A stretch of DNA of 32,000 nucleotides from Thermoproteota archaeon (GCA_003352285.1 QQVN01000003.1:392490-424489), one strand, 5' to 3'; numbered from the stretch's first letter, positions 3 to 18,265 are shown. Numbers and translations: made by a program. Notes: generated by a model from the sequence alone, not told the origin.

Positions 3-2000
3 GAGAGAGGAATTACAATTTACCAAGCAAATGTAACATTACACTATACCCACAAAGGAACTGAATACGTCATTAACATGATTGATACTCCAGGTCACGT
101 AGACTTTAGTGGTAGAGTAGTTAGAAGCCTTCGAGCAATTGACGGTGCAGTAGTAGTATGTGATGCAGTAGAGGGAATCATGACTCAAACTGAGACCGTA
201 ACTAGAATGGCACTTGAGGAAAGAGTAAAACCAGTTTTGTTTATCAACAAAGTAGACAGGCTCATCAAGGAATTGAGATTAACTCCTGAAAAGATGCAAG
301 AGACTCTTGCAAATGTAGTATCTAACTTTAATGACCTAATTGACACCTATGCAGAACCTGATTACAAAGACAAGTGGAAGGTAAAGATTCAGGAGGCTAG
401 TGTAACATTTGGCTCTGCAAAAGACAAGTGGGCAATCAACGTTGATGTTATGAAGGAAAAAGGAATCACATTCAAAGATGTAATTGATGCTTATCAAAAT
501 GGTAAAGTAGATGAACTAGTAGCAAAAGCGCCACTAGCTGAGGCAGTACTTGGAATGGTTGTAAAACATCATCCACCACCACATGAAGCACAAAGATACA
601 GAATTCCAAAAATTTGGAAGGGTGATTTGGATTCAGATATTGGAAAGGCTTTGCTTGCATGCAAAGATGATGGTCCAACTATCATGATGGTAGTAAACAT
701 GGTACTTGACAAGGCAGCAGGACCTGTGGCAGTAGGTAGATTATTCTCTGGAACCATAAAAGATGGCCAAACAATTAACATCATTGATGCAAAACGTGAA
801 GGAAGAATTCAATCAGTAAACTTTTTCATGGGAAACCAAAGGGAACAGGTAGGTGAGCTTGGTGCAGGAAACATTCCAGCACTAATGGGACTAATTGAAG
901 CTCGTTCTGGTAATACCATATCCTCTGTTAGCGGAATCAAAATGTTTGAAGGTGTAAGCTATGTATCTGAACCAGTAGTTCAGGTTGCAGTTGAGCCAAA
1001 GCATCCAAAGGACTTACCAAAACTTGTTGAGGTGTTACGTCAACTAACCATTGAGGATCCAAACCTTGTTGTAAAAATTGATGAAGAAAGCGGTGAGACT
1101 ATCATTGCTGGAATGGGTGTACTGCACCTTGATGTTGCAACTCATCGTATTCAGGATACCAAAATTGAAATTATTACATCAGAACCCTTGATCAACTATA
1201 GAGAGACTGTCAAGGGCGCATGTGAGCCTATCATGTCAAAATCACCAAACAGACACAACAAGATTTTCATGAAAGTTGAGCCACTGGAGCCAAAGATTGG
1301 TGACATGTTACGTTCTGGCCAAATTGGTGAGATGAAAGACAAAAAGGAGATGGCAGATTTGCTCAAAGCCCAAGGGTGGGACACTGATACTATCAAGAGA
1401 ATTATGAAATTAGATTCACGTGGAAACGTTATGATTAATGGAACAAAAGGTGTCCAGTTTGTTGGCGAATCAACTGACTCTATTAACTCTGGATTTGAAG
1501 AAGTAATGAAAGAAGGTCCACTCTGTAAAGAGCAGATGAGGGACTGTAAATTCACATTTACTCACTTTGTTCCACACGAGGACACTGCACACAGAGGTCT
1601 ATCACAACTAGGACCTGCTTCACGTCGTGCATGCATGGGTGCACTACTCACTGCAGGAACTTCACTATTAGAGCCAATTTTAGCTATAGAAGTTAGAGTG
1701 CCAACTGACATGGTTGGAAACGTAGCAACTGTTCTTTCTGGAAAGAGGGGCAAAGTACTTGACATGTCACAAAAAGGCGCACTAAGTATTGTAACTGGTG
1801 AGATTCCAGCATCAGAGACCTTTACACTATCAGAAGAGATGAGAGGACAAACTGCTGGAAAAGCAATGTGGAACTCTCACTTTAAGATGTGGGCTGAGGT
1901 TCCAAAATCTAGATTATCTGAAGCAATAGTTGAGATTCGAAAGAGAAAGGGACTGGCACCCGACCCACCAACTGTTGATGAGTTTATCGATAAAGAGTAA
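3..2000 (+). CDS. fusA: Translation elongation factor 2 (aEF-2), 5' end cut off by the window edge
   Basis: The frame is open from position 3 (ERGITIYQANVTLHY... precedes the track's first Met), so the true start lies upstream of the window. It has GTPase motifs DTPGHVDF (G3) and NKVDR (G4). Near the C-terminus is the archaeal/eukaryotic HEDTAHRG loop carrying the diphthamide histidine. Confidence 0.97.
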   Translation, partial: ERGITIYQANVTLHYTHKGTEYVINMIDTPGHVDFSGRVVRSLRAIDGAVVVCDAVEGIMTQTETVTRMALEERVKPVLFINKVDRLIKELRLTPEKMQETLANVVSNFNDLIDTYAEPDYKDKWKVKIQEASVTFGSAKDKWAINVDVMKEKGITFKDVIDAYQNGKVDELVAKAPLAEAVLGMVVKHHPPPHEAQRYRIPKIWKGDLDSDIGKALLACKDDGPTIMMVVNMVLDKAAGPVAVGRLFSGTIKDGQTINIIDAKREGRIQSVNFFMGNQREQVGELGAGNIPALMGLIEARSGNTISSVSGIKMFEGVSYVSEPVVQVAVEPKHPKDLPKLVEVLRQLTIEDPNLVVKIDEESGETIIAGMGVLHLDVATHRIQDTKIEIITSEPLINYRETVKGACEPIMSKSPNRHNKIFMKVEPLEPKIGDMLRSGQIGEMKDKKEMADLLKAQGWDTDTIKRIMKLDSRGNVMINGTKGVQFVGESTDSINSGFEEVMKEGPLCKEQMRDCKFTFTHFVPHEDTAHRGLSQLGPASRRACMGALLTAGTSLLEPILAIEVRVPTDMVGNVATVLSGKRGKVLDMSQKGALSIVTGEIPASETFTLSEEMRGQTAGKAMWNSHFKMWAEVPKSRLSEAIVEIRKRKGLAPDPPTVDEFIDKE

Positions 2001-2064
2001 AAAGAGAACGACCCCCTCTTAGGCATAATTTTACGACGCATCTAGAACTAACGGACGTTATGAT

Positions 2065-3024
2065 TTGTTGGAGAATGGTTATTTTGTTGTAAATTATGTA
2101 AAATTGATGAACGTTGATAACAACTGTGTTACTGGATTTGGGATATTTTTTTACCCATTTGTATTCATAAATGATAAACCCGGTATTTTACCTAGGGCCC
2201 CACCAAAAAAATCAGGCCGGTCATATAGAAACATCGTGATAAAGAGAAAATTCAAGGATCATGTTACACTGGTAACTGATGATGGGTTTGTAGCCGTAAT
2301 TTCAGACGATAAAAAAAAGACATTAAATTATATCAACTTGATTTTTGCCACATCAATATTACACAGCATACATTATGCCAAACAGGCAACTTCTCCTGAT
2401 CTTGGACATGTTATTTTTCATAAAAATCTAAATCAAATTGAGTTTAATGCCTTAAAATTAACTGAAAGAAACTACATTGCCTTAGATAGAGATGAAGGAG
2501 GACGTTATGGTCGAATAGCTCATGCTTTTCCAAGGAATTGGATTTCTATTGAGCGAATGAATTTTGTTCTAAATCGTGCTAATAAATATAAAAAAAATAC
2601 AAAATTAGTAAACCGCCTCATATTGTTGGCTGAGGGTTGGAGTCACATATACGAATTATCCCCTTCTGCAGGTTTCATGTTCTGTTGGGTTTTCATAGAA
2701 AATTTTATTGATGAATTTTGGAAAAAACATATTGCAACTCTTTCTCGTACAAAAGTTGAAACAGATGCATTAGCAGGATTTGTCTCATGGACGGCATACA
2801 ATAAAATCGAAGTATTATCTCAAGTTGGAAAAATACCTGATTCTTCTAGAAAAGTTATCGATGAAATGAGAAAAAAGCGAAATTCATTTGTTCATGATTG
2901 GAAGCAGATAACTCAAAAAGATGCAGTTCGATGTTTTGGAATTGCAGCGTATATTCTTCTAAATCAATTTGAAAGAAAAAACCCATTTTCAGATTTAGAG
3001 AGAATTAATCAGATACCTGATTAA
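2065..3024 (+). CDS. Hypothetical protein with C-terminal HEPN-like domain (RNxxxH motif); possible Abi-type RNase
   Basis: 319-aa ORF with TTG at 2065 and the first in-frame ATG at 2107. The C-terminal region carries EMRKKRNSFVHDW, i.e. R272-N-S-F-V-H277 (nt 2878-2895). This matches the Rx4-6H / RNxxxH signature of HEPN ribonucleases. The N-terminal ~180 aa have no motif I recognise. Confidence 0.6.
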   Translation: MLENGYFVVNYVKLMNVDNNCVTGFGIFFYPFVFINDKPGILPRAPPKKSGRSYRNIVIKRKFKDHVTLVTDDGFVAVISDDKKKTLNYINLIFATSILHSIHYAKQATSPDLGHVIFHKNLNQIEFNALKLTERNYIALDRDEGGRYGRIAHAFPRNWISIERMNFVLNRANKYKKNTKLVNRLILLAEGWSHIYELSPSAGFMFCWVFIENFIDEFWKKHIATLSRTKVETDALAGFVSWTAYNKIEVLSQVGKIPDSSRKVIDEMRKKRNSFVHDWKQITQKDAVRCFGIAAYILLNQFERKNPFSDLERINQIPD

Positions 3025-3057
3025 GAATAAGATTAACTTATGTAAGAATTTATCATA

Positions 3058-3294
3058 ATGACAAAAGCAAAAGCAATCAAAATCCTACAAGAGTATTCAG
3101 ACCACCTAGAACGCTCATTTATCAGATGGAATGAAAATCCCTTTGAATATACTGACCCCACTCTAAAGGACATTAATCAAACTCTGGGTAAAATACTAGA
3201 AAGAGACTATCTGTTAATCAAAGCAGTTCTAAAAGAGTTACAACCATCTACAAAAAAGAGAAAAGTAAAAAATTCTATTCCAAAAAAGAATTAA
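3058..3294 (+). CDS. Hypothetical small protein (78 aa, lysine-rich tail)
   Basis: ATG-initiated ORF 33 nt downstream of the HEPN-motif gene on the same strand. No recognisable motif. Its stop codon overlaps the stop of the convergent mrr gene (TTAA at 3291-3294). Confidence 0.4.
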   Translation: MTKAKAIKILQEYSDHLERSFIRWNENPFEYTDPTLKDINQTLGKILERDYLLIKAVLKELQPSTKKRKVKNSIPKKN

Positions 3295-4196
3295 CTCTCA
3301 AAATAATCTTCATCTATTTTTTTAAGACTATATGTTTCTGCAGTTTGTACACCAACATCATAGTCAATCATGTATTGTGTTAGTTGGTCTCCATTAATCA
3401 GGACAATCTTTGCATCTGGTGTCTTTACATATTCATAGGCATCTGATGAAAAATCAGATGTTGTAATGAAAATTCCTTTTTTAGATTTTTTCCCTAAGAG
3501 TGCGCCTCCGAAATCTCTTACTTGGTGTATTGGAACAGTATTCTTCCAGCGTTTTGCTTGAAAATAAATTTCATCCAAACCCAATTTGTCTTCTTTAATT
3601 ACTCCATCAATTCCTCCATCCCCTGTTCTTCCTAGTACCTTGTGATCGATTCCATAACCCATCTTTCTTATCAATTCTAAAACTAGTCTTTCAAAAAACT
3701 GTGGAGAGTTATTCTCTAATCTATCCAGTAATTCTTTTTGTAAATTTGCTCTAAGTTCTTGATATCCTTCTATGATTAGATCCTCTGGTGTATATCCTGC
3801 AAAATTTTCTCCATATTGGACCATGGGCCTTTCAATTTCAGGTGACTTCTTTTTAGAGTAAAATTCAACAAAGGGCTGAAACTGCATCAAAAATTTAATA
3901 TCAATTCGTTGAGGGTTTGTTTTTGCAACTTCTATGCCTTGAGAGGTAATTTTTGTATGTCCTCGTCTTGGATCTTCAAGTAGTCCTGCTTTTTTCAGAT
4001 AAAATCTAGCCCATCGCATTCTATTTTGAAAGATTGTTTCATGTGAACTACTTGGTTTTAGTTGATTTCGTTCTTCTTCAGATAAATCAAAGTGCTGAAT
4101 TAGTTTATTTTCAATATCTGTCATTGCATATTCTTTACCATCTTTTACAGTATTCAGTAATGGGGCCATTATGGTTTCAAAATCAGGAATATCCAT
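3291..4196 (-). CDS. mrr: Mrr-family type IV restriction endonuclease (Mrr_N winged helix + Mrr_cat PD-(D/E)xK domain)
   Basis: The N-terminus (IMAPLLNTVKDGKEY...QNRMRWARFYLKKAGLLE) looks like the Mrr N-terminal wHTH. The C-terminus has FERLVLELIRKMGY...GDGGIDGVI...EIYFQAKRW...KGIFITTSDFS, the characteristic Mrr catalytic-core pattern. Confidence 0.88.
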   Translation of the reverse strand: MDIPDFETIMAPLLNTVKDGKEYAMTDIENKLIQHFDLSEEERNQLKPSSSHETIFQNRMRWARFYLKKAGLLEDPRRGHTKITSQGIEVAKTNPQRIDIKFLMQFQPFVEFYSKKKSPEIERPMVQYGENFAGYTPEDLIIEGYQELRANLQKELLDRLENNSPQFFERLVLELIRKMGYGIDHKVLGRTGDGGIDGVIKEDKLGLDEIYFQAKRWKNTVPIHQVRDFGGALLGKKSKKGIFITTSDFSSDAYEYVKTPDAKIVLINGDQLTQYMIDYDVGVQTAETYSLKKIDEDYFES

Positions 4197-4291
4197 GTAT
4201 GAAAAATAAGGTTTGAGGATAAATCTATTTTTGCTATAATCTTAGCCTGCTTTTGGAAAATCTTATTTTCATACCTTCCTAGGATAGAATT

Positions 4292-4627
4292 ATGGGATAT
4301 GGACGCAAACCTAGACGACATTCTAATCGGGATTATCGTAAAGGACGTGCAAAGCCAAAACTAGCAGTAATTGGAGCCATAGTACTAGGAATTGGAATTT
4401 TGGTAATGTTGTATGGTTCAAGTTTTGTAGACTTTGAGAAACGTATGCTAATTGGAGTTGCTACCATTCCTACGGGAGTAATCATGTTGTTACTTAGTAT
4501 GAGAAAAAAGGATCAAATCAGATTTGCAAAAGGAATGGAGAGAGCATCAGATGTATTCAAAGATGATTGCCAGTGTTGTAAATGTCAGAATTGTGGGAGA
4601 GACCACAATCATTGGGTACATGACTGA
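4292..4627 (+). CDS. Small membrane protein with basic N-terminus, two TM helices and a Cys/His-rich tail
   Basis: 111 aa. It starts MGYGRKPRRHSNRDYRKGRAKPK and has two hydrophobic helices (LAVIGAIVLGIGILVMLYG; IGVATIPTGVIMLLLSM). The C-terminus is DDCQCCKCQNCGRDHNHWVHD. No family recognised. Confidence 0.55.
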   Translation: MGYGRKPRRHSNRDYRKGRAKPKLAVIGAIVLGIGILVMLYGSSFVDFEKRMLIGVATIPTGVIMLLLSMRKKDQIRFAKGMERASDVFKDDCQCCKCQNCGRDHNHWVHD

Positions 4628-4676
4628 AAAAATAATTACATTTTCTAAAAATTCAAAATTAATTGATTTTTTGTAT

Positions 4677-6497
4677 CTATTGCTCGTCGCTGTGTGCACC
4701 CTCATTAATGATACGCTGAAGATCCCTATCTAGTAATTTTTGATTTTCGTTTATGCTTCGAAGGGTTCCCGTTAAACCATCAGTTGTCCACACGTAATCT
4801 TGTTCCATTGAAAAGAACAAAGACGAATAATTCTTACAAAGATTTACTAAATTAACTCCTAGAACCGGATCATCAAAATCATTCTCAATTTTTGAAACGA
4901 ATCTGGTAATGTTTTGAGCGAAAAATGTTATTGAATCCCCATTATTTTTTGAATTCCTAATAATATCGGCTTTTAGTTTTGGATTTGGATTTTTCTGATA
5001 ATCTTTTATCCACATTTCCAGAGCATCGTATCTCTGTTTAATGCTAGATAGATCTTCGTAGATTAAATTTCCAAAACGTGTTTTACGTTTCTTAATACGT
5101 TGGTTTTCTTCCTGAATGAATCCTCGTACTTCTTTTATCAGATTCTGTTGGTTTTTCTCTATTGTCTTAATTTCAGCGACGGCATCTTTGGTATTAGTGA
5201 TCAAAGTGTTTGTTTTATTTGCTAATTTTGTAATCTCTATTTGCTGTCTTGCAATTTTTGTGTTTTTAGAATCATCTAAAATTTTAATTGTCATTGCAAT
5301 CATTACGCCTATTGCAATTTCTACTATCATTGTGCCCCAATTACTTAAATCAGTACTTTCAGAAAAATCCCAGCCGGGTTGGATTATGGGAATAATAAGA
5401 ACAGATAAGGAAATCACCGCAAAGCCTGAATAAACTACCATGAAAATTTTTGAAGTGATTATTTTTTTCCCTAGCTTATCTTTTTTTGTGGGATCTTTTT
5501 CAACTGCTTCTTTACGTTCGTCTTCTACGGTTTTACGATAATTAAAAAATATTGTGATACTAACAGTTGAAATTATTGCGACTAAAAGTAGACTAATAGC
5601 TGCATATAGTTGAAACATTTGAATGTCATTTATCTTGTCTTGAACATATTCAGCACCGTTTTTTACAGATAAATTTTCTGGATCTTGTTTTAGTACGTCA
5701 TTGTAAAAACCCAGAGATTTTCTATAGTACTCAATATCGTTGCTTTCATCCCCTTTATCTGAATACACTTTACCTAAATTCTTTAAAACACCTACGTTGT
5801 TTGGATCTTTTTGAAATCCTTGCAACAAATATTTTTCAGCATTTTCAAAATCTCGTTCCAATCCGTATGAAATCCCTAGTTGTGTAAAATACTTGATATC
5901 AGTATTATCTGAGACCGTGATTTTTTCTAAAAATGATCTGGCTTCTATTGGTCTGTTTTTATCATTAAGCAACTTAGCAGTAGTTAAGAAAAGATTGTCA
6001 ATGTTATTGCCTTTTTTTATGAGAGCATTAGCTTCACGTAAAACCTCTTCTGGGTCATCACCTGCCATAACGCGGGCAGACAATAAATTGGAATGAGCAA
6101 CAATATTATCTGGATCCAAATTATGAGCTATTGCAGACTGTATTTTTGCAGCCGCATAATCACCATGAACAAAGTGGAGTGCTGCTAGATTTCCTATCAA
6201 TACAGAATCATTAGGAAAATCCAGAACAGCTTTCACCAAGCAGTCTTCTGCATCGTCTAATTGCTTTAATTCTAACAGATATGCGCATTCATTGGTTCTC
6301 TCCTCTTTGTGAAGTGGATTATCATTCAACAACTGTCTCGTATGATTTAATGCAATTTCAATTTCTTCAGACGAACCTGTCAGAATATCTGAGGTGTATT
6401 CTGAATAATCTTCAGAATACTGGGAATAAACTACTGAAAACGGAGATAACGAAAAAACGACTAGAATGAACATCACATAACATAGTATTATTTTCAT
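4677..6497 (-). CDS. Signal-peptide / TPR-repeat / 3-TM / coiled-coil protein of unknown function
   Basis: 606 aa with an N-terminal hydrophobic leader (MKIILCYVMFILVVFSLSPFSVVYSQ). At least three TPR-like units are present, e.g. GNLAALHFVHGDYAAAKIQSAIAHNLDPDN, FTQLGISYGLERDFENAEKYLLQGFQKDPNN and LKNLGKVYSDKGD...VLKQDPEN. Hydrophobic helices lie at about aa 295-318, 351-372 and 388-406. The last ~200 aa form a heptad-rich and unrecognised C-terminal region. Confidence 0.8.
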   Translation of the reverse strand: MKIILCYVMFILVVFSLSPFSVVYSQYSEDYSEYTSDILTGSSEEIEIALNHTRQLLNDNPLHKEERTNECAYLLELKQLDDAEDCLVKAVLDFPNDSVLIGNLAALHFVHGDYAAAKIQSAIAHNLDPDNIVAHSNLLSARVMAGDDPEEVLREANALIKKGNNIDNLFLTTAKLLNDKNRPIEARSFLEKITVSDNTDIKYFTQLGISYGLERDFENAEKYLLQGFQKDPNNVGVLKNLGKVYSDKGDESNDIEYYRKSLGFYNDVLKQDPENLSVKNGAEYVQDKINDIQMFQLYAAISLLLVAIISTVSITIFFNYRKTVEDERKEAVEKDPTKKDKLGKKIITSKIFMVVYSGFAVISLSVLIIPIIQPGWDFSESTDLSNWGTMIVEIAIGVMIAMTIKILDDSKNTKIARQQIEITKLANKTNTLITNTKDAVAEIKTIEKNQQNLIKEVRGFIQEENQRIKKRKTRFGNLIYEDLSSIKQRYDALEMWIKDYQKNPNPKLKADIIRNSKNNGDSITFFAQNITRFVSKIENDFDDPVLGVNLVNLCKNYSSLFFSMEQDYVWTTDGLTGTLRSINENQKLLDRDLQRIINEGAHSDEQ

Positions 6498-6643
6498 ATT
6501 TTTTTCAACATGTAGTTAAATTTAAACCGCTTTACTATCTTTTGGAAAAGATACGAATAATATATTGATATTATTTTCAAAAATTAATTGTATCGGTAAA
6601 GCATTACAGAAAAATATAATATTTTCACAACATCTTGTAATTC
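6498..6643. promoter_or_regulatory. Divergent promoter spacer between the TPR/TM gene and the OLD-type nuclease gene
   Basis: 146-bp AT-rich spacer. A TATA-like AAATATAATA at 6612-6621 is centred about 28 nt upstream of the ATG at 6644, a spacing consistent with a leaderless archaeal mRNA. A perfect 8-bp inverted repeat AATAATAT-attg-ATATTATT lies at 6556-6575. Such repeats can arise by chance in AT-rich DNA. Confidence 0.35.
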
Positions 6644-8449
6644 ATGAATTTAGTATCTATTAAGATTTCAAATATGCTGAGTTTTGAATATCATGAAAAT
6701 ATTGACGAATGTGAGGAAATTAAATTCAAAGATGGTATAAACACACTAATTGCGCCAAATGGATCAGGAAAAAGTAATTTTCTTGAAATTGTGAACAAGT
6801 TTATCAATTATGGGCTAATTCAGCAAGCTAGTTATTCTGAAGCAAGTATTCAAAGCTATAAAATTAAGGGTGGACCACCCGATTTTACAAATACTATTCA
6901 ACTGGAAGATCTAGAAGTTAGAATCGCAAAGAATCGATATGCAACTTCAGATGCACAAAAGATTAAGGCAACAATAGGATTAAGCAATAGCGATAAAGAT
7001 AATCTTCGGTTTATTCATCAACATGCTTCAGAAATAAATTCACTTTGTGAAAAATACTGTAAAAAATTTCCTACTTTCCCAAATATTTCTGAGCAAGAGC
7101 TAATGCAGATTGATTCTATTACGGTAGAATTTGAATCATCTAATCCTCCACGCAAATTATCTATTACATCGAGACATAACGGAGCAGAACTTTTTGTTCT
7201 TTTCTATATCCAGTTCTTTAGTTTACTACAAAATCTAATTCATATTGCAAACAGAGAAGAGGCAAAAGGATGGACTCTTTTCAAAAATACATTCGCACTA
7301 CTGAATAGCCAAAGAAATTACAATCAAATCGAGTCCATCTTTAAAGTTGGAGGAGATGAATCTAGTGAAATTAACAGTGCAAAATTAGCTCTTAGCAGAG
7401 CAAACCTTCTGGAGTCAGAACAGCAAGAACCATACATCTTCATGTATGTAAGAAAGAGATTAGGTTTTGCCTTTCACCACATGTTAGAAGAAATCGGCAG
7501 TAAACAATTTACTGAATCAGGAACCGATCCTATAGATGCATTCGATGATGAGTTATTTGTAAAAATCAATACGCTTTTGAAAAAGACTTTGGGAATGAGA
7601 CTGCATATTAAAAAAACAAGCCCAAACAGCTTAGATTATGTTTTTTCTTATCGATATTTCGATACAGGCCAACAAGTATCAGTTCAAGAATTAAGTTCAG
7701 GTGAAAGAGGATTGATCCATTTTATTTTTAGTATTTTTGGAAATGATCTTGAAAATGGGCAAATGATATTAGATGAACCGGAAATTCACTTACACCCACA
7801 ATTACAGGAAACTTGTCTTGAGATTATGTTAGAATCTGCCAAATTACAAACTATGCAATTCATCATTGCGACACATTCACCAGTGTTTGTAAATTCTAAA
7901 ACTATAATGGGCGTTCAGCGATTTTATAAAAAAGATGAGAAATTTACTAAAACTATCTTACCTCAACTGACTAATGATAACCATGATCTTGTAAGGTACT
8001 TGGATTTTACACGAGCTACAAAAATTCTGTTTAATACTAAGGTGGTACTAGTGGAAGGAGATTCGGATGAATACTGTTACAAATTTTTATTTGAAAAATT
8101 TAGAGAAAGTAAATCCAATTTGAAAAAAATTGAGTTTATTCACATTATTGGGAAAAACTACTACAGTAAATGGAAGTTATTTTTTGATAGCTGGAAAATA
8201 AAATGTTATTTCATTAGAGATAATGATAATTTTGGGGGAAGCGTGGTAGATATAGAAACAAAATACACTTCTGGTATTTTTATCTTAAAACAAGGTGATT
8301 TGGAAACTTACATTGGAAATGAAAAAAACAATAAACTAGAAAATGCCATAGATTTTTGCCAAAATCGATACAACGACTGGTTAGATGATTCTGAATACGA
8401 AGATAAAAGGGAGGAAATCAAAACAATAATGGAAAAAATAATGTCGTAA
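6644..8449 (+). CDS. OLD-family (OLD/PARIS-like) ABC-type ATPase fused to a Toprim nuclease domain
   Basis: 601 aa. Motifs: Walker A APNGSGKS (nt 6752-6775); ABC signature-like LSSGERG; Walker B MILDEPEIHLHP (D377/E378); H-loop IIATHSP. The C-terminal Toprim (about nt 8042-8311) has VVLVEGDSDE and a DxD element in FIRDNDNFGG. No adjacent UvrD-like helicase, reverse transcriptase or HNH gene. Confidence 0.85.
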   Translation: MNLVSIKISNMLSFEYHENIDECEEIKFKDGINTLIAPNGSGKSNFLEIVNKFINYGLIQQASYSEASIQSYKIKGGPPDFTNTIQLEDLEVRIAKNRYATSDAQKIKATIGLSNSDKDNLRFIHQHASEINSLCEKYCKKFPTFPNISEQELMQIDSITVEFESSNPPRKLSITSRHNGAELFVLFYIQFFSLLQNLIHIANREEAKGWTLFKNTFALLNSQRNYNQIESIFKVGGDESSEINSAKLALSRANLLESEQQEPYIFMYVRKRLGFAFHHMLEEIGSKQFTESGTDPIDAFDDELFVKINTLLKKTLGMRLHIKKTSPNSLDYVFSYRYFDTGQQVSVQELSSGERGLIHFIFSIFGNDLENGQMILDEPEIHLHPQLQETCLEIMLESAKLQTMQFIIATHSPVFVNSKTIMGVQRFYKKDEKFTKTILPQLTNDNHDLVRYLDFTRATKILFNTKVVLVEGDSDEYCYKFLFEKFRESKSNLKKIEFIHIIGKNYYSKWKLFFDSWKIKCYFIRDNDNFGGSVVDIETKYTSGIFILKQGDLETYIGNEKNNKLENAIDFCQNRYNDWLDDSEYEDKREEIKTIMEKIMS

Positions 8450-8621
8450 TTAAATAAAAATTTTCTAAATTTTCATCAAATGCAAATTCAATTATCATAA
8501 TTTTTGTGAGTGGTATCTTTGAATGTTCATTTTTTATTAATTAAATTCCAAATTTGTATTCATAGTATTCTCATCAAATTCTTCACTGAGGAATAATGAT
8601 GTTGAGATTCTTGTATTTTCT

Positions 8622-9602
8622 TCAAAGAAATTCATCATTAGTTTCAAAAGAATCAGAAATTAATCCCTCCAAAACAGTTTTACGATTTCCAAAGAATGTT
8701 CCCATATACTTTGCATATCGAATAAATGTCTCTGCGCTGAGAACGCCGTCATCTTCATTATTGATAATGTCTGTTATTGTGCCTGCAATTGCCTTTGCAC
8801 GACGCGCTTCTATGGCTTTCATCTCCTCGTCAAATTTTTCATGTGTTTTTTCACTCCATGTAGTTCTTCCTCTAAATTCTTTTAGATATTTTCTGTTTAA
8901 ATCGTCGGTTTCAAATGAACTATGTTGATGTATCATCCATAATGCATGTATTTTATCAATAAAATCTCCATTATGTTTGATGTATTTTCTTAATAATGCA
9001 AATTCTAGAAGATCATAAGCTAGTCTCTCTTCATTAAGTTTTAAACAACATTTGAGTCCCAATGATTCCATATCTGTAACTATTTCTATGGATTTTTCCA
9101 TTGTACATTCTTCTAAATTTATGATTTCACAAATTAACTCTTCATTTCTGATGCAAGGATTCTTTGCATGTTTAATTATTAAAAATAAAATTAACTCTCT
9201 TATCTGAGATTCATCTTTTTTTTCTTTTAGCGCATTTGGTTCTTTGGAGATTCTCATCAAAATATCATTTATCTTACTGTCAATATCCAAAAGTAATTTT
9301 TCTAATTTTACTTTATTTTCTCCTCCCTCAGTGATTCCTTCTAAGATTCTTGTTCTTTGGGCATCTAATCTTCCAAGTTGCTGTAGAATCAGATCATCCC
9401 GTTTCTGTCTAGTTTCTTCTTTAATACTGTTGTACAGATATTGAATATCTGCATTAATTGTATTTGGATTAATCTTCATTGTCTCTGCAATCTTTCTTGC
9501 AGAATAACCAAACTCAAAGTGTAGTCTTGCAACTTCATTTCTTCTACCTTCTCTGTCGTTTTTTGTATACGGTCCACCTTTTTTTGCCTCTGTTAAAGAC
9601 AT
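8622..9602 (-). CDS. Hypothetical protein with N-terminal helix-turn-helix
   Basis: 326 aa. The N-terminus RRNEVARLHFEFGYSARKIAETMKINPNTINADIQYL has the pattern of a three-helix HTH (sigma-70 region 4 / transposase-HTH-like). The remaining ~260 aa are helical-looking and unrecognised. Confidence 0.65.
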   Translation of the reverse strand: MSLTEAKKGGPYTKNDREGRRNEVARLHFEFGYSARKIAETMKINPNTINADIQYLYNSIKEETRQKRDDLILQQLGRLDAQRTRILEGITEGGENKVKLEKLLLDIDSKINDILMRISKEPNALKEKKDESQIRELILFLIIKHAKNPCIRNEELICEIINLEECTMEKSIEIVTDMESLGLKCCLKLNEERLAYDLLEFALLRKYIKHNGDFIDKIHALWMIHQHSSFETDDLNRKYLKEFRGRTTWSEKTHEKFDEEMKAIEARRAKAIAGTITDIINNEDDGVLSAETFIRYAKYMGTFFGNRKTVLEGLISDSFETNDEFL

Positions 9603-9763
9603 GTTAGTAATTGGGACTTCTCAGATTTGGAAGATCTGTTGCATTCGGTATTGACTATTAGTCAGCTCAAAATCAACCCAATTTTGAAAATGACCTAGTT
9701 TGCACTAGTTAGTATCATGATTGGATTGTAAACTTGTAAAAAGTAACATCACTCCTTACAATG

Positions 9764-9794: not shown

Positions 9795-10853
9795 GTGAAA
9801 AAAGCATCTGAAACTTCCATGATTGAACCCTCTGAGTGGCTATCTCTAAACCAGTTTATTCATGACATAAAGCAGGTTGATTCTCAATGTATCTCAGTTT
9901 ACTATCCGTACGGAAAGGGAAAAGAAACAATCTCGCTTTTACAAAAGACACACAGAAACAAATCTCTTGAAAAAATAGAGTTAGAGATTGAAAAGAGAAT
10001 CATTCAGCTCAAAAGAAAACCAACTTCTGCAGGAAAATTCACAAAGACTATGTGCATATTTGGGTGGATAAAAAATGGTAAGATACTCACAAAGGAGATT
10101 GGTACTTCAAAGAGTCTCCCGTACATCTACATGGCAAGCAAAAAACCATACATCAAGCCATTTCGTGATATTCTAAAGGCAAACTATAACGTAATTCTTG
10201 TAACTCTTGATCAAAAAACAGCTAAAATACAAAAGATTCATGGAGATAAGATAATCCAAGAAGCAAGTCTTGGAATTGATTTGCGAGGAAGGCACAGAAA
10301 GGGAGGCCAGAGCCAGGGGAGATTCCAAAGGGCAAGAAAAACAAAGATTCACGTATTTTTCAAAAATGTTGCTGACAAGCTAAGAAAGATGGATTCAGAC
10401 TCTGAGCTAATACTGATAGGTGGCACAGGCTCGGCAAAAGAAAATTTTCTTGGAATGATTGATTCTAGACTACAAGAAAAATGTATGATGGTAGATGATC
10501 TGTCATTTTCTACGCCACAAAAAGAGGTTCACAAAAAAATAATCTCCAAACTATACCGACACAGAAGAAAACATGTGTCAAGAATTATCTCAAAGTATGA
10601 TGAATTAGTCAAAGAAGGATTAACTGCAAAGAAAAATGATGTTATTTACAAGGCACTACAAAACGGCAGAGTGGAGACGCTAATTGTTTCTGCCGACTAT
10701 CACACAGATTCACAATTTAACAAAATAATGAAGATGCTAGAGCTTGCAAAGATGACATCGGCTAAAATAGAGTTTGTATCGTCTCCAAAAGTACTAGATA
10801 GGCTAAAAATCAATGATTCGGTCTTGGCAATACTGCGTTACCGCAAAAACTGA
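9795..10853 (+). CDS. aRF1/eRF1-superfamily protein with intact GGQ loop but non-canonical N-domain
   Basis: 352 aa with GTG at 9795 and the first ATG at 9819. The middle domain has LRGRHRKGGQSQGRFQRARKTKIHVFFKNVADKL, with GGQ at nt 10302-10310. This parallels the aRF1 pattern HGRGGQSxxRFxRLRxEKxHNYxRKVAE. The C-terminal domain (LILIGGTGSAKENF... NGRVETLIVS) parallels eRF1 domain 3. I find no NIKS or YxCxxxF motif. It is shorter than the ~410-420 aa I recall as typical for aRF1. Confidence 0.75.
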   Translation: MKKASETSMIEPSEWLSLNQFIHDIKQVDSQCISVYYPYGKGKETISLLQKTHRNKSLEKIELEIEKRIIQLKRKPTSAGKFTKTMCIFGWIKNGKILTKEIGTSKSLPYIYMASKKPYIKPFRDILKANYNVILVTLDQKTAKIQKIHGDKIIQEASLGIDLRGRHRKGGQSQGRFQRARKTKIHVFFKNVADKLRKMDSDSELILIGGTGSAKENFLGMIDSRLQEKCMMVDDLSFSTPQKEVHKKIISKLYRHRRKHVSRIISKYDELVKEGLTAKKNDVIYKALQNGRVETLIVSADYHTDSQFNKIMKMLELAKMTSAKIEFVSSPKVLDRLKINDSVLAILRYRKN

Positions 10854-10952
10854 TGCATAAAACTACAAACTCCCTTAGAAAATATTCAAAATGAATGAAT
10901 TTTTTAAAAATTTGTTTGATGTTTAAAGAATAGGCCTTTTATTTCATTTTGA

Positions 10953-11155
10953 CCTACTATTCCCTGATAACTTCTAGCTTAGTGGTCTCGGCATGAAGCT
11001 AAAAACTTCGACCACTAAACTTTGACGGTGCAAAAACTCCTCAAGATTCTACTGAAAACCTTTTTTTAACGTAGAACTAAATAATTCGTAATTGGTTTGC
11101 ACGCCAACAAACCTAGAAGGGATTGTCATCAGGCAGTCCCTCTAGAAAGTTTTTT
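10953..11155 (+). ncRNA. Candidate structured small RNA (unclassified) in a 330-nt gene-free gap
   Basis: Nested complementarity is visible. A closing helix pairs 10963-10968/11128-11133 (6 bp) and 10971-10977/11113-11119 (7 bp). One hairpin pairs 10980-10987/11010-11017 (8 bp) and extends with 10995-10998/11006-11009. Another hairpin pairs 11094-11099/11108-11113. A TATA-like TTTAAAGAATA lies at 10922-10932 and a T6 run at 11150-11155. I counted 73 G+C in the 180 nt at 10961-11140, above most intergenic DNA here. An internal T7 at 11061-11067 argues against a single + strand transcript. No known RNA family motif was recognised. Confidence 0.2.
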
Positions 11156-11192
11156 GCAAATTATTATAATGTAATCAAATACACATTTGAGA

Positions 11193-11801
11193 ATGTCACA
11201 AATCAAGTGTGTGCTCTTTGATCTCGGAGGAGTTGTTCTAAACTGGAATAATTCCTGGCTAACTGATGAAATAAGCAAACAATTCAATCTCTCAAAGGAA
11301 AAATTTGAGCAAGAATTTGATAATCATTTAGGGGTTTTATCCTCTGGAAAGATGACTGAGAAAGAGTTTTGGGAAAGCATTAGCAAAAAGATTGATGCCT
11401 CAAATCTGATACGACAGGATTCTATCTTAGAACCGGTATTTAGAAAACTAGTATCAATTAATCAATCAGTATATTCCCTTTCCTCAAAGCTAAAAGATAA
11501 CGGACTCTCAATTGGAATTCTATCAAATACTGAACCTGTCACTTATTCTGTGATAGAAAGCTTGGAGTCCTTTGATCACTTTGATTACAAGTTTTTGTCA
11601 TACGAGATTGGCCTGGTAAAGCCAGATCCAAAAATATACGAACACGTTGTGAGTAATCTGCCATACAAAAAAGAGGAATTATTCTTCATAGATGATACAA
11701 TACAAAATGTTCACTCTGCAAATGACTATGGATTAAGAACAGTTCAATTCCACAGTTATGATTCCCTAGTAAATGATTTAGAGCGACTAGATATTCTTTA
11801 A
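11193..11801 (+). CDS. HAD-superfamily hydrolase (subfamily IA-like)
   Basis: HAD motif I is VLFDLGGVV, motif II ILSNT, motif III the lysine in GLVKPDPKIY, and motif IV FFIDDTIQN. The track starts at TTG 11187. ATG 11193 is the more likely start. Confidence 0.85.
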   Translation: MSQIKCVLFDLGGVVLNWNNSWLTDEISKQFNLSKEKFEQEFDNHLGVLSSGKMTEKEFWESISKKIDASNLIRQDSILEPVFRKLVSINQSVYSLSSKLKDNGLSIGILSNTEPVTYSVIESLESFDHFDYKFLSYEIGLVKPDPKIYEHVVSNLPYKKEELFFIDDTIQNVHSANDYGLRTVQFHSYDSLVNDLERLDIL

Positions 11802-11802
11802 A

Positions 11803-12141
11803 TCAAATCTGTATCTTTAGCAGTAATCGAGAGTTTATCTTTTTTCTAATTGGATTAAAATGAATCTTCCCATTCTTAATCAGGTAGCTCTCTTTGAGGT
11901 TCTCATCTTCGGGCAAAAACTCGTATTGAAAATTTCCAAGCTTAAGATCCTGTAGAATTATTCCTTTGATTGGGTGGTCTGATTCATCAAGATCAATCTT
12001 TTCTCTGTTTTGCATGATTACTCTAGGATAGTAATCTCGTTGAAACTTTTCAAGAACATATTTTTTCAAAAAGGTTTCATCATCGCGTGCCTTGAGCCAC
12101 CAATTTGGAGATACATCCATGAAGAACACTAGCTCCTGCAT
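11803..12141 (-). CDS. Hypothetical protein (112 aa)
   Basis: ATG-initiated ORF that fills the gap between neighbouring genes. No motif recognised. Confidence 0.5.
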   Translation of the reverse strand: MQELVFFMDVSPNWWLKARDDETFLKKYVLEKFQRDYYPRVIMQNREKIDLDESDHPIKGIILQDLKLGNFQYEFLPEDENLKESYLIKNGKIHFNPIRKKINSRLLLKIQI

Positions 12142-12185
12142 ACTCTAGTATACTTGTTATTTGCATTTAACACTGTTCAAAAAAT

Positions 12186-12743
12186 TTATGATTCCCCGAG
12201 TCTTGCAAATCTGACATCATACTCTTTTTGCTTTACTGCATTGCTCCCAAATTCCGTCTCAGAGTCATACTTATTCCGTAATGTGGCAAAATACTCTCCT
12301 TTGATTCTCTCGACTTGCTCATTTGCTAAAGACAAGGCATCCTCTCTTGCATATTCTAGTATTTCATGCTCGTTTTTTCCTCGTATAGGAAATTTCTTAC
12401 CCTCAAATGCTTTGGTTGCAAGGCGTCCAATCTCATCTGAATATTCCTGTGCAAGATCAAAATGCCCCTGTTCATGGTTTAGCAATTTTTCACTCATGCC
12501 AGAATCTCCCATAACAAACTCCCTAACCCAAGATAGTTTCTTTTGAAATTCTGGAATCACTGTAATCTTTGATACTGAAAAGAATCGTGGTCTGTCTGGA
12601 TTATCTGCAGTAATGATGGGATTTACAAAAAATCTTATCGATGATAACGCATCGTGTTCATGGGCTGGATTTGGTTCTGCCACAAAGTCAGACCATCGTA
12701 GTTTTTGATCCTTTGACCAATGAATTATGGAATCATCACTCAT
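12186..12743 (-). CDS. HExxH-motif protein, DUF922-like putative zinc metallopeptidase
   Basis: 185 aa. LLNHEQGHFDL contains HExxH. The N-terminal LRWSDFVAEP resembles the conserved start of DUF922-type proteins as I remember them. No signal peptide. Confidence 0.6.
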   Translation of the reverse strand: MSDDSIIHWSKDQKLRWSDFVAEPNPAHEHDALSSIRFFVNPIITADNPDRPRFFSVSKITVIPEFQKKLSWVREFVMGDSGMSEKLLNHEQGHFDLAQEYSDEIGRLATKAFEGKKFPIRGKNEHEILEYAREDALSLANEQVERIKGEYFATLRNKYDSETEFGSNAVKQKEYDVRFARLGES

Positions 12744-12869
12744 GTTTTGCTCATCCCTTGAACAATTATGAATTTAATGGCATGTTTTACCCTAAATACC
12801 TCAAACTTTGTTCCTGATTTTAAAATAAAATTAGAAAGATAGTTAAGATGTCATTTACGCCTCTATCCC

Positions 12870-13181
12870 ATGGGTAAGCGTAAGGTCCTAAACGAATCTG
12901 AACTAAAAGAGATGCAATTGCCTGCCGATGGTGAACTATTTGGCAGAGTAATCAAGATGATGGGCGGAGAAAACTTACTTGTAAAGTGTTCTGATGGTGT
13001 TACCAGAAGAGGAAGAATCAGAGGAAAGCTAAAACGAAGGGTTTGGATTCGAGATAATGATATTGTAATTATTGCTCCATGGGAGTTTGGAGACAAAGAC
13101 CGAGGAGATATCTTGTGGCGTTATACATTACCACAGGTTGACTGGCTCAAGGCAAACAAGCACATCGAAGTCGACTTTTAA
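12870..13181 (+). CDS. eif1a: Translation initiation factor aIF-1A
   Basis: 103 aa with a basic N-terminus. The S1/OB-fold core GELFGRVIKMMGGENLLVKCSDGVTRRGRIRGKLKRRVWIRDNDIVIIAPWEF is typical of a/eIF-1A. Confidence 0.93.
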   Translation: MGKRKVLNESELKEMQLPADGELFGRVIKMMGGENLLVKCSDGVTRRGRIRGKLKRRVWIRDNDIVIIAPWEFGDKDRGDILWRYTLPQVDWLKANKHIEVDF

Positions 13182-13204
13182 CCAACACCTGTTTATTACC
13201 AATA

Positions 13205-13786
13205 ATGAAATCATCTAATGATTTTTCATGCATTTCAGAATGCTCCCAGTGTTGCATTGAGCGAGAGTACTATCCTTCAAAAAAATTTGGTAAAATCGGT
13301 GTACTGATTCTACCAAAAGAAAAAAACAAAATTGAATCTCTAGTAAAAGAGCTTGGAATCAAAATTACAGTTTTGCCAAGAATTGGCATCTCAGATTCTA
13401 AATCAAAAGAACCAACTGAAATCTTGGCTTTTCAGCTAATGGGAAAGGATACCAACGGAAACACATGTCCATTTCTTGATACAGAGTCTGATTTGCGCTC
13501 TCCTCATGGGGGATTTACTTGCAAAATTTATGAGAACAGACCTTTGGCATGCAGGGCGTATCCGTTAATCGAATCCACTCCATTAACCATTGATTCAAAG
13601 TGCAAATTTTGTCAAGAGTGTGGACAACCTGATGGAAATCTCCAATCCGAATTGGAATCTCTAATTCAGATAAAGTCATCAATGCATACCGAGTCAGAAA
13701 AAATCTGGCGTTATGCAACTGGCATTGGAGAAGCAGATGATTCTGATTATATTGCAAATGGCTGGTTTGCAGAAGCAGTCGACTAA
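13205..13786 (+). CDS. YkgJ/UPF0153-family Cys-cluster (putative Zn/Fe-S) protein
   Basis: The N-terminus has CISECSQCC (Cx3CxxCC, a one-residue-longer variant of the CxxCxxCC I recall for the family). Later cysteines are CPFL, CKIYENRPLACRAYP and CKFCQEC, as in YkgJ-type proteins. Confidence 0.7.
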   Translation: MKSSNDFSCISECSQCCIEREYYPSKKFGKIGVLILPKEKNKIESLVKELGIKITVLPRIGISDSKSKEPTEILAFQLMGKDTNGNTCPFLDTESDLRSPHGGFTCKIYENRPLACRAYPLIESTPLTIDSKCKFCQECGQPDGNLQSELESLIQIKSSMHTESEKIWRYATGIGEADDSDYIANGWFAEAVD

Positions 13787-13821
13787 AACCTCATAATAGA
13801 GGACACATTGCTTGCATTATC

Positions 13822-17278: not shown

Positions 17279-17375
17279 GAATTATTTTTAATTACTGAAT
17301 TGTTGCGTTTAGATGTTTTGTTAACCTAGAAATATTTTTAATGAGTTATATTGACCTGCCTGATTTTTGTGATTT

Positions 17376-18233: not shown

Positions 18234-18265
18234 GGATTTTTATCTTATTGTTACATTGATGAATT

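What the first reader, a model, noticed from the sequence alone, without database searches (positions are those of the whole stretch)
4677..8449. Divergently transcribed pair: OLD/PARIS-like ATPase-Toprim nuclease and an exported-TPR/3-TM/coiled-coil protein - candidate undescribed two-gene system
The 601-aa protein is an unambiguous OLD-family architecture, with an ABC-type ATPase (Walker A, signature, Walker B, H-loop) followed by a Toprim domain (VEGDSDE ... DND). As I recall them, the described OLD contexts are:
- stand-alone (class 1)
- with a UvrD-like helicase (Gabija)
- with a retron reverse transcriptase
- the split or fused AriA/AriB of PARIS

None of the partner genes is present here. 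The gene instead shares a 146-bp AT-rich divergent promoter spacer with a 606-aa protein. That protein combines a signal peptide, extracytoplasmic TPR repeats, three TM helices and a ~200-aa cytoplasmic coiled-coil/unknown domain. If the two are functionally linked, this would be a membrane-anchored sensor or scaffold paired with a cytoplasmic ATP-dependent nuclease. I do not know that combination from described OLD classes. The functional link is inferred only from adjacency and the shared spacer.
Basis: inference. Interest (0 to 1): 0.75.

Follow-up and report, generated by a model that had tools for sequence, protein, structure and literature searches.

The report
Casposon remnant carrying OLD nuclease cargo
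The two genes are real. They sit in the leftover of a self-replicating archaeal transposon (a casposon) inserted at its usual site behind the elongation-factor-2 gene, and each gene's family is accessory cargo of such transposons, so they are probably neighbours by descent rather than a new two-gene immune system.

Summary
A 601-aa OLD-family ABC-ATPase/Toprim nuclease (6644-8449 +) and a 606-aa exported-TPR/3-TM/helical protein (4677-6497 -) diverge from a 146-bp spacer. No helicase, reverse transcriptase or AriB partner is present.

The context changes the reading.
- **Island position.** The island (about 2001-9700) starts directly after the ef-2 stop codon with a family-1 casposon left end (target copy, TIR and subterminal motif). 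It has no Cas1, no pPolB and no right TIR.
- **OLD relatives.** Four of the five closest OLD homologues examined (39-47% identity) lie next to a casposon Cas1, three of them also with pPolB. One is the published NitDev-C1.
- **TPR-TM relatives.** This rare thaumarchaeal family is also casposon cargo. It is the last gene before the right TIR in Nitrosopumilus ureiphilus and in a metagenomic contig.
- **Linkage.** It is not conserved: four of six OLD loci lack a robust relative of the membrane family, and no other membrane-family locus has OLD in the same element.
- **Exception.** In NitDev-C1 a remote homologue of the membrane protein's TM/coiled-coil part is divergently adjacent to OLD.

Best reading: a decayed casposon with independently acting, class-1-type OLD cargo. 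A true membrane-partner/OLD module remains possible (about 0.2).

The parts
78..2000 (+). 3' 640 codons of the elongation factor 2 gene (aEF-2), the chromosomal target of thaumarchaeal family-1 casposons
   Evidence: Pfam GTP_EFTU, EFG_III, EFG_IV and EFG_C. 83-90% identical to 80 metagenomic ef-2 genes. ef-2 is the commonest casposon target according to PMC6563490.
1983..2000 (+). ef-2 3' end TTTATCGATAAAGAGTAA, the sequence that is duplicated as the target-site duplication in intact casposons; only one copy is present here
   Evidence: The same 18 nt flank both ends of the intact casposon in L118 (D3). The published NitAR1-C1 TSD begins TTTATTGATAAAGAGTAAAAA. There is no second copy in the window.
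1998..2046 (+). Casposon left terminal inverted repeat (TAAAAAGAGAACGACCCCCTCTTAGGC...); no matching right arm in the window
   Evidence: Aligns column by column with the left ends of casposons at ef-2 (A5). The L118 TIR is 46 nt and 100% complementary to its right arm. A C5 run within 30 nt of the ef-2 stop occurs in 15/18 loci with Cas1/pPolB and 14/60 without. No inverted copy was found.
2057..2082 (+). Conserved subterminal motif of the Cas1-proximal casposon end (GTTATGATTTGTTGGAGAATGGTTAT)
   Evidence: 96% identical over 26 nt to intact casposon L118 (E 1.9e-7). Unique in the window, with 0 matches expected by chance. Present in 8 of the 18 loci with Cas1/pPolB downstream of ef-2.
2107..3024 (+). 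DUF4145-domain protein (305 aa; the mechanical ORF starts at TTG 2065)
   Evidence: Pfam DUF4145 1e-5. The DUF4145 region is 36% identical to a 189-aa gene inside NitDev-C1. Annotated as DUF4145 in NCBI.
3291..4196 (-). Mrr-type restriction endonuclease (Mrr_N + Mrr_cat)
   Evidence: Pfam Mrr_cat 4.1e-35 and Mrr_N 3.5e-28.
4292..4627 (+). 111-aa protein with two TM segments and a Cys/His-rich tail; function unknown
   Evidence: No Pfam hit. Hydropathy segments at 24-42 and 52-70, and the C-terminus CQCCKCQNCGRDHNHWVHD.
4677..6497 (-). Exported TPR / 3-TM / coiled-coil + helical-bundle protein (the finding's 606-aa gene)
   Evidence: TPR hits. Topology. AF2 model. Only three close homologues among 5.8 billion proteins. 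Modular family of 81 clusters. Family members are terminal casposon cargo in L166 and L001.
6498..6643 (.). 146-bp AT-rich divergent intergenic spacer. A TATA-like run lies about 20-35 nt upstream of each start codon (inference from the sequence).
   Evidence: Sequence read. No promoter experiment or archaeal promoter model was available.
6644..8449 (+). OLD-family ATP-dependent nuclease (ABC ATPase + Toprim), class-1-type by context
   Evidence: Best solved relative is the class 1 OLD of Thermus scotoductus, 6P74 (7e-8). The closest homologues are next to Cas1 in casposons.
8622..9602 (-). 326-aa protein with a probable N-terminal HTH domain; last gene of the island
   Evidence: No Pfam hit. 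The N-terminal 120 aa are 40% identical to a 200-aa gene on the contig that carries the TPR-TM homologue P0123. That homologue has weak HTH hits.
9795..10853 (+). Pelota (eRF1-fold) gene, the first housekeeping gene to the right of the island; not part of it
   Evidence: Pfam eRF1_2. GC rises from 0.29-0.33 in the island to 0.36 here. It is not next to ef-2 in relatives.

Best explanation
The region from the ef-2 stop codon to about 9700 is the immobilised remnant of a thaumarchaeal family-1 casposon, or a cargo island built on one.

What is retained and what is lost (shown):
- The Cas1-proximal terminus is retained: the target sequence, the TIR and the subterminal motif.
- The casposase (Cas1), the protein-primed PolB and the right terminus are missing.
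- What remains is accessory cargo: a DUF4145 protein, Mrr, a small TM protein, the TPR-TM protein, the OLD nuclease and an HTH protein.

The OLD gene belongs to a clade that travels mostly in casposons. By context it is a stand-alone, class-1-type enzyme.

Inferred mechanism, from the family:
- An ABC-ATPase dimer controls a two-metal Toprim nuclease.
- The nuclease nicks or degrades DNA of competing viruses or elements, as P2 Old does for its prophage.

The TPR-TM protein belongs to a separate, modular, thaumarchaeal membrane-protein family that is also casposon cargo. It most likely acts on its own at the cell envelope, for example in exclusion or sensing of incoming elements (inferred; no catalytic signature was found).

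The divergent adjacency of the two genes is an inherited cargo arrangement, not evidence of an obligate two-component system.
For: Left end:
- Window 1983-2085 aligns with the left ends of casposons inserted at ef-2.
- The 26-nt subterminal motif is 96% identical to the intact casposon in L118, which has 46-nt perfect TIRs and an ef-2 TSD.
- Published TSD and TIR strings agree.
- ef-2 is the commonest target.

Hot spot:
- 18 of 80 related ef-2 loci carry Cas1/pPolB genes or fragments just downstream.
- The C-run TIR signature tracks with them.

OLD as cargo:
- P0003, P0011 and P0023 lie between Cas1 and pPolB. P0009 lies directly after Cas1, with no pPolB seen.
- L082 has both TIRs.
- NitDev-C1 and NitNF5-C1 are published as OLD-bearing.

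TPR-TM as cargo:
- P0128 ends 11 nt before the right arm of 57-nt, 98% complementary TIRs in N. ureiphilus.
- P0122 ends about 30 nt before a right TIR.

A third shared cargo family, DUF4145, links the window and NitDev-C1.

No conserved pairing. No helicase, RT or AriB is present. The best solved relative is class 1 TsOLD. The catalytic residues are invariant in the clade.
Against: - Only one casposon end is present, with no Cas1/pPolB pseudogene fragments. A solo TIR scar followed by unrelated genes also occurs (L108 and L115), so the cargo could have arrived independently of the TIR.
- In NitDev-C1 a remote relative of the membrane protein is divergently adjacent to the OLD orthologue, in the same arrangement as here. 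This fits a functional pair as well as shared ancestry.
- The sample of readable contexts is small: six OLD loci and five informative membrane-family loci.
- No activity, expression or defence phenotype has been tested.
- The role proposed for the TPR-TM protein is inference only. Foldseek found nothing significant.
Confidence: 0.6

Rival explanations
1. The two genes form a real two-component module carried by casposons. A membrane protein of the 'D..NW...E.GIG' TM + coiled-coil family (here extended by an extracytoplasmic TPR sensor) regulates or localises the cytoplasmic OLD nuclease. This would be a further OLD context besides classes 1-4.
For: - Divergent adjacency in the window with a 146-bp spacer.
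- The same arrangement in NitDev-C1: CUR51625, an exported/TM/coiled-coil protein of 272 aa, lies 114 bp from OLD CUR51624.
- That protein is the only non-member ORF among 11,546 that hits the family profile strongly (32.3 bits, E 3.9e-8). hhalign gives 91% probability, and 0 of 2000 segment-preserving shuffles reach its score.
- A weaker TM-motif hit lies 750 bp upstream of OLD in L082.
Against: - OLD clade members in L007, L008/L009 and L010 have no such neighbour.
- L008 and L082 OLDs are 80% identical but have different upstream genes.
- The L082 hit is at noise level in the full ORF set.
- Close TPR-TM homologues occur without OLD: P0123 with SIR2/TIR, and P0128 with HEPN-AbiV.
- The OLD-like gene near P0122 is in a different tandem element.
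- The NitDev protein aligns only over the TM/coiled-coil part and the start of the C-terminal domain (86 columns), not over the rest of that domain.
Confidence: 0.2
2. The island is an ordinary defence island that accreted at a recombination hot spot behind ef-2. The casposon TIR is only an old scar, and OLD and TPR-TM were acquired separately by other routes.
For: - Solo TIR-like scars followed by housekeeping genes exist in relatives: L084, L090, L108 and L115.
- The ef-2 flank is a rearrangement breakpoint in this clade (L107 is inverted; the Pelota block is displaced).
- Mrr, DUF4145, SIR2 and TIR neighbours are typical of defence islands.
Against: - The window keeps not only the TIR but also the subterminal motif. 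The scar-only loci L084, L090, L108 and L115 lack it. Among loci with at least 5 kb read downstream, only L109 and L140 have the motif without a Cas1/pPolB hit.
- Three island gene families (OLD, TPR-TM, DUF4145) recur inside intact casposons.
Confidence: 0.12
3. The OLD nuclease is not a defence gene but an accessory of casposon mobility (for example excision or end processing). It is retained here as a relic.
For: - Casposons carry a varying nuclease complement: OLD, HNH, NERD, Cas4 and HEPN.
- OLD usually lies in the segment next to Cas1.
Against: - Most family-1 casposons lack OLD, including the intact L118 and L166 elements.
- The window gene is intact with all catalytic residues although the mobility core is gone, which suggests selection for a host- or island-level function.
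- Characterised class 1 OLDs act in phage interference.
Confidence: 0.08

Closest known systems
OLD nucleases of thaumarchaeal family-1 casposons (NitDev-C1 CUR51624; NitNF5-C1 WP_048116321; Krupovic et al. 2019, PMC6563490)
   Same: - Same ABC-ATPase + Toprim architecture.
- 39% identity to the NitDev-C1 protein over residues 1-529.
- Same host phylum.
- Same genomic setting: a casposon end at the ef-2 attachment site.
- A DUF4145 gene and an exported TM/coiled-coil gene are also shared with NitDev-C1.
   Different: - The window element has no Cas1, no pPolB and no right TIR.
- The membrane neighbour carries an extra TPR ectodomain and two more TM helices.
- In NitNF5-C1 the divergent neighbour of OLD is an HNH nuclease.
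Class 1 OLD family nucleases (P2 Old; Thermus scotoductus OLD, PDB 6P74; Vibrio cholerae class 1 OLD)
   Same: [quoted passage not shown]
- No helicase, RT or AriB partner.
- Best solved-structure match is 6P74; best PADLOC model is Old.
- Carried by a mobile element, as P2 Old is carried by a prophage.
   Different: - Sequence similarity to 6P74 is limited to residues 348-485 (E 7e-8).
- Class 1 genes are described as not lying near other defence genes (PMC10568477), whereas this one sits beside Mrr and DUF4145 genes.
- Archaeal host. Activity untested.
Gabija GajA (class 2 OLD)
   Same: ABC ATPase + Toprim. Several GajA PADLOC models score almost as well as Old (7e-24).
   Different: - No UvrD/PcrA-like GajB gene downstream. 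The downstream gene is a 326-aa HTH-like protein on the other strand.
- No GajA structure was found by sequence at E <= 0.001.
Intact family-1 casposons at ef-2
   Same: Identical target (the 3' end of ef-2), a homologous left TIR and subterminal motif, and variable cargo between the core genes.
   Different: The intact elements have Cas1, 3-4 small conserved genes, pPolB, a right TIR and a target-site duplication. None of these is present in the window.

Membership tests
OLD family nuclease | N-terminal ABC-type ATPase with Walker A, signature, Walker B and H-loop | tested here: met
   Pfam AAA_15 and AAA_21. The motifs are read. K43, S351/G353, D377/E378 and H411 are invariant in 27 clade members.
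OLD family nuclease | C-terminal Toprim domain with the conserved glutamate and DxD acidic cluster | tested here: met
   OLD-like_TOPRIM 2.1e-12 at residues 462-528. E471, D475, D526 and D528 are invariant.
OLD family nuclease | ATP hydrolysis and metal-dependent DNA cleavage | not testable with these tools
   Needs purified protein.
Class 1 OLD (stand-alone) | No UvrD/PcrA/Rep-like helicase, retron RT/ncRNA or separate Toprim partner adjacent | tested here: met
   The island genes have no such domains. No Rfam RNA. The downstream gene is a 326-aa HTH-like protein on the opposite strand.
Class 1 OLD (stand-alone) | Single gene not proximal to other candidate defence genes (as stated in PMC10568477) | tested here: not met
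   Mrr endonuclease and a DUF4145 protein lie within 4 kb in the same island.
Class 2 OLD / Gabija | GajB helicase gene immediately downstream | tested here: not met
   no helicase anywhere in 2001-9700.
Class 3 OLD / retron | Adjacent reverse transcriptase and msr/msd ncRNA | tested here: not met
   No RT domain. The NCBIfam retron Eco8 effector model scores 42.9 bits against a cut-off of 250.
Class 4 OLD / PARIS | AriA ATPase with a separate or fused AriB (DUF4435-type Toprim) | tested here: inconclusive
   The AriA and AriAB models hit more weakly (1.6e-18, 2.8e-16) than Old and GajA. The Toprim matches the OLD-like Pfam model rather than DUF4435. No phylogeny was made.
Family-1 casposon | Casposase (Cas1 homologue) | tested here: not met
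   tblastn with four casposon Cas1 proteins finds nothing in the window.
Family-1 casposon | [quoted passage not shown] | tested here: not met
   tblastn with three pPolB proteins finds nothing in the window. No PolB domain in the window ORFs scanned.
Family-1 casposon | Terminal inverted repeats at both ends, flanked by a target-site duplication | tested here: not met
   Only the left TIR and one copy of the target are present.
Family-1 casposon | Insertion at the 3' end of ef-2 with a homologous terminus | tested here: met
   Taken with the three unmet features above, this makes the island a remnant, not a member.

The most novel reading that the evidence does not exclude
A membrane protein family defined by a 'D..NW...E.GIG' TM helix, a coiled coil and a helical C-terminal bundle (sometimes with an exported TPR sensor) is a dedicated partner of a casposon-borne OLD clade. 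This would be a fifth OLD context, in which an envelope-anchored sensor or scaffold controls an ATP-dependent Toprim nuclease in ammonia-oxidising archaea.
Probability: 0.2. Interest if true: 0.65.

Novelty: new member of a known kind. Interest (0 to 1): 0.35.

Why it matters
- **A confound removed.** A proposed new defence system is largely explained by shared carriage on casposons. This is a reminder that adjacency inside mobile-element cargo is weak evidence of function.
- **Casposon decay.** Casposon termini can persist at ef-2 after the mobility core is lost, while nuclease and membrane cargo stay intact. This bears on how casposons seed defence islands in ammonia-oxidising archaea, which have few described immune systems.
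- **A second cargo family.** The work identifies a rare, modular TPR/TM protein family as recurrent terminal casposon cargo. The 2019 catalogue text does not mention it (no occurrence of 'TPR').
- **A remaining lead.** The recurrence of an OLD/membrane-protein divergent pair in NitDev-C1 is a concrete, testable lead for class 1 OLD biology, where partners and triggers are still unknown.

Tried and rejected
- **Genome-collection scan with an OLD alignment.** No thaumarchaeal loci were returned, so it was of little use for neighbourhood statistics.
- **Third homologue search, with the C-terminal family alignment.** Cluster look-ups partly replaced it.
- **Search for a right TIR, a second ef-2 3' copy or any Cas1/pPolB fragment in the window.** Nothing was found, so an intact or non-autonomous two-ended casposon is rejected.
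- **Foldseek of the C-terminal half against the PDB.** Only generic helical bundles came back (best E 0.15). The weak HepT/HEPN matches were not pursued, because the family has no conserved Rx4-6H motif (alignment). The AFDB library was unavailable.
- **The OLD-like gene on the P0122 contig.** I first took it as support for linkage. I rejected it after finding a right TIR and a second left TIR between the two genes.
- **The L082 228-aa TM protein.** I first counted it as a third co-occurrence. I downgraded it because equal scores occur elsewhere in the full ORF set.

Full report
**1. Observation**

The window holds a 606-aa ORF at 4677-6497 (-) and a 601-aa ORF at 6644-8449 (+). They are separated by 146 bp of AT-rich DNA.

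The 601-aa protein is an OLD-family enzyme.
- Pfam gives AAA_15 and AAA_21 over residues 1-417 and OLD-like_TOPRIM at 462-528.
- The best PADLOC models are Old (2.5e-24) and several GajA models.
- The Walker A, signature, Walker B, H-loop, Toprim glutamate and DxD residues can be read in the translation. They are invariant in an alignment of 27 clade members.

The 606-aa protein has an exported TPR domain, three TM helices and a cytoplasmic helical tail.
- TPR models hit residues about 74-272.
- There is an N-terminal hydrophobic signal/anchor and three TM segments. Loop charges place the TPR domain outside and residues 408-606 in the cytoplasm.
- The AlphaFold2 model of residues 290-606 is all-helical: a long coiled-coil-like helix followed by a compact bundle (mean pLDDT 83.8, the bundle above 90).

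No helicase, reverse transcriptase or DUF4435/AriB domain occurs in any island gene, and Rfam finds no RNA.

**2. Surroundings**

The two genes lie in a low-GC stretch (0.29-0.33, against 0.36-0.42 in the flanks). The stretch runs between the elongation factor 2 gene (78-2000) and Pelota (9795-10853).

The other island genes are:
- a DUF4145 protein;
- an Mrr endonuclease;
- a 111-aa two-TM Cys-rich protein;
- a 326-aa protein with a probable HTH N-terminus.

The sequence comes from MAGs labelled Crenarchaeota/Thermoproteota archaeon, where both genes are annotated as hypothetical. All relatives found are Nitrososphaerota, the ammonia-oxidising thaumarchaea.

**3. Where the OLD relatives live**

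The best OLD homologues are 38-48% identical. I read five of them in context.
- P0003 (L007), P0011 (L082) and P0023 (L081) lie between a Cas1 gene and a protein-primed PolB gene. They also sit with the small conserved genes typical of family-1 casposons.
- P0009 (L008/L009) lies directly after Cas1, with no pPolB seen in the stretch read.
- L082 has both TIRs.
- L081 is Nitrosotalea devaniterrae LN890280, and the element is the published NitDev-C1.
- P0013 (L010) is the exception. It lies in a chromosomal setting, with what reads like the 3' half of a tRNA gene just downstream (not run through the tRNA finder).

Krupovic et al. 2019 (PMC6563490) report OLD nucleases in NitDev-C1 and NitNF5-C1. 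They also state that ef-2 is the commonest integration target of thaumarchaeal casposons.

**4. The island starts with a casposon end**

The island begins at the ef-2 stop codon, so I fetched 80 related ef-2 loci.
- 18 of them carry Cas1 and/or pPolB genes or fragments just downstream of ef-2.
- L118 is a complete element. It has 46-nt perfect TIRs (10898-10943 and 18031-18076) and a duplication of the ef-2 3' end TTTATCGACAAAGAGTAA.
- The window sequence 1983-2085 aligns with these left ends over its whole length.
- The alignment covers the C-run of the TIR and a subterminal motif, GTTATGATTTGTTGGAGAATGGTTAT. That motif is 96% identical to L118 over 26 nt (E 1.9e-7) and unique in the window.
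- A C5 run within 30 nt of the ef-2 stop is found in 15 of 18 loci with Cas1/pPolB and in 14 of 60 without. Most of those 14 are contigs too short to tell.
- The published TSD and TIR strings agree.

The window has no right TIR, no second copy of the target, and no Cas1 or pPolB remnant. It is therefore a one-ended, core-less remnant.

In relatives, conserved synteny resumes with the homologues of the window genes at 15030 and 17376 onward. The Pelota-to-14244 block is not next to ef-2, so the right side has also been rearranged.

**5. Where the membrane-protein relatives live**

The word-indexed search of 5.8 billion proteins found only the protein itself and two homologues, P0122 (48% identity) and P0123 (43%). 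A full HMMER scan with the TM and C-terminal half found 81 clusters. They show a modular family:
- the signal + TPR + 3-TM module occurs with several unrelated C-termini;
- the last TM helix (motif D..NW...E.GIG), the coiled coil and the ~140-aa C-terminal bundle occur alone as 210-290-aa proteins.

Contexts read:
- P0128, in the complete genome of Nitrosopumilus ureiphilus, is the last gene inside a casposon bounded by 57-nt TIRs (2185-2241 and 11748-11804 in L166). That element carries Cas1, HEPN-AbiV, a second TPR protein and pPolB, but no OLD.
- P0122 ends about 30 nt before a casposon right TIR. A second, tandem left end follows directly, and the truncated OLD-family gene 1.7 kb away (Pfam OLD-like_TOPRIM 4.8e-17, 26% identity to the window OLD) belongs to that second element.
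- P0123 lies behind an 837-aa SIR2 gene and near a TIR gene, with no OLD within -5.4 kb or +2.6 kb.
- The short form P0204 sits in a conserved DsbA / aRF1 / HIT neighbourhood on two contigs.

**6. Is the pair linked?**

From the OLD side, four of six contexts lack a robust relative of the membrane family. The OLDs of L008 and L082 are 80% identical yet have different upstream genes. From the membrane side, no other locus has OLD in the same element.

The one exception is real. In NitDev-C1 the gene divergently adjacent to OLD (CUR51625, 272 aa, 114-bp spacer) has a signal peptide, one TM helix and a coiled coil.
- It is the only non-member among 11,546 ORFs to hit the family profile strongly (32.3 bits, E 3.9e-8).
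- hhalign gives 91% probability over 86 columns.
- None of 2000 segment-preserving shuffles reach its score; the best scores 18.3 bits.

A second candidate in L082 is at noise level. NitDev-C1 also shares a DUF4145 gene with the window. The simplest reading is therefore that the window island and NitDev-C1 descend from related cargo blocks. A functional coupling of OLD with this membrane family is not excluded, and I put it at about 0.2.

**7. Mechanism**

Shown:
- the domain architecture and intact catalytic residues;
- the casposon left junction;
- cargo status of both families;
- the lack of a conserved pairing.

Inferred from the family (PMC7049728, PMC10568477):
- the OLD protein acts as a dimeric ABC ATPase that gates a two-metal Toprim nuclease;
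- the nuclease nicks or degrades foreign DNA;
- as with P2 Old, this benefits the element or its host against competitors.

For the TPR-TM protein, only the topology and a helical cytoplasmic bundle are shown. Foldseek found no informative match. An envelope-level exclusion or sensing role is speculation.

**8. Comparison and novelty**

The OLD gene meets the family definition and, by context, the class 1 definition (no partner). It lies near other defence genes, unlike the usual description of class 1. The class 2 and class 3 contexts were tested and not met. Class 4 is unlikely by model scores, but no tree was made.

The island fails three of the four defining features of a casposon, so it is filed as a remnant. 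OLD nucleases in thaumarchaeal casposons are already published, so this is a new member of a known kind.

The new points are modest:
- cargo survives after loss of the mobility core;
- a TPR/TM family recurs as terminal casposon cargo;
- the OLD/membrane-gene arrangement recurs in NitDev-C1.

Noticed in passing
window 9795-14244 versus 15030-22835: In 25 or more related contigs ef-2 is followed, after 1-5 kb of variable DNA, by homologues of the window genes at 15030, 17376, 17946, 18510, 19368 and 21322. The Pelota / HAD / eIF-1A / CxxCxxCC block (9795-14244) is not there. In L121 Pelota lies after the 21322 homologue, and in L107 the block is inverted. The ef-2 flank is a rearrangement breakpoint.
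   Followed up: partly
L118 18073-20797: After the right TIR and TSD of the intact casposon comes a second TIR-like start (AAAAAAGGCAGTCCCCCCTTTT) and a second, truncated pPolB gene on the other strand (19127-20797, 48% identical to the first). This looks like a tandem casposon array at ef-2.
   Followed up: partly
L166 2185-11804 (Nitrosopumilus ureiphilus CP026995; L166 is the reverse of record positions 1267933-1289669): An apparently intact family-1 casposon with 57-nt TIRs. It carries Cas1, HEPN-AbiV, two TPR proteins and an inverted pPolB. The genome is not among those named in the passages of the 2019 paper and its supplement that I read.
   Followed up: partly
L084, L090, L108, L115, just after ef-2: These loci have a TIR-like C-run scar after the ef-2 stop but no Cas1/pPolB hit. 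In L108 and L115, the two I scanned, the genes that follow are ordinary chromosomal ones (Na/H exchanger, aminotransferases, a copper protein). They look like footprints of lost casposons.
   Followed up: partly
window 8622-9602 (-) and L002 718-1320 (+): The N-terminal 120 aa of the 326-aa island protein are 40% identical to a 200-aa gene on the contig that carries the TPR-TM homologue P0123. That gene has weak HTH hits. The two islands therefore share a second gene family.
   Followed up: partly
window 4292-4627 (+): A 111-aa protein with two TM segments and the C-terminal cluster CQCCKCQNCGRDHNHWVHD, convergent with the TPR-TM gene (49-bp gap). No family hit.
   Followed up: no
window 6644-8449 (protein P0206): In the 90%-identity clustering, the window's OLD protein is filed under a 52-aa representative named 'LAT3 family solute carrier'. 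This is probably why the homologue search did not return the protein itself.
   Followed up: no
L002 2747-5260 and 7295-7927: The TPR-TM homologue P0123 is flanked by an 837-aa SIR2_2 protein (same strand, 200-bp gap) and by a 210-aa methyltransferase-like protein matching the MADS mad2 model (3.2e-12). A TIR protein lies further upstream. This is another thaumarchaeal defence island.
   Followed up: no
L010 about 10040-10100: The only OLD-clade gene examined that is not next to Cas1 is followed by a sequence that reads like the 3' half of a tRNA gene (GGGGGTTCAAATCCCCCTCCCCGCGCCA). This suggests a tRNA-linked integration site. It was not run through the tRNA finder.
   Followed up: no
L167 2859-3575 and L168 10001-10717: A short (238-aa) member of the TM/coiled-coil/C-domain family sits in a conserved DsbA / aRF1 / HIT / DUF6659 / HEAT neighbourhood on two contigs. 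The family therefore also has chromosomal members that are not in islands.
   Followed up: no
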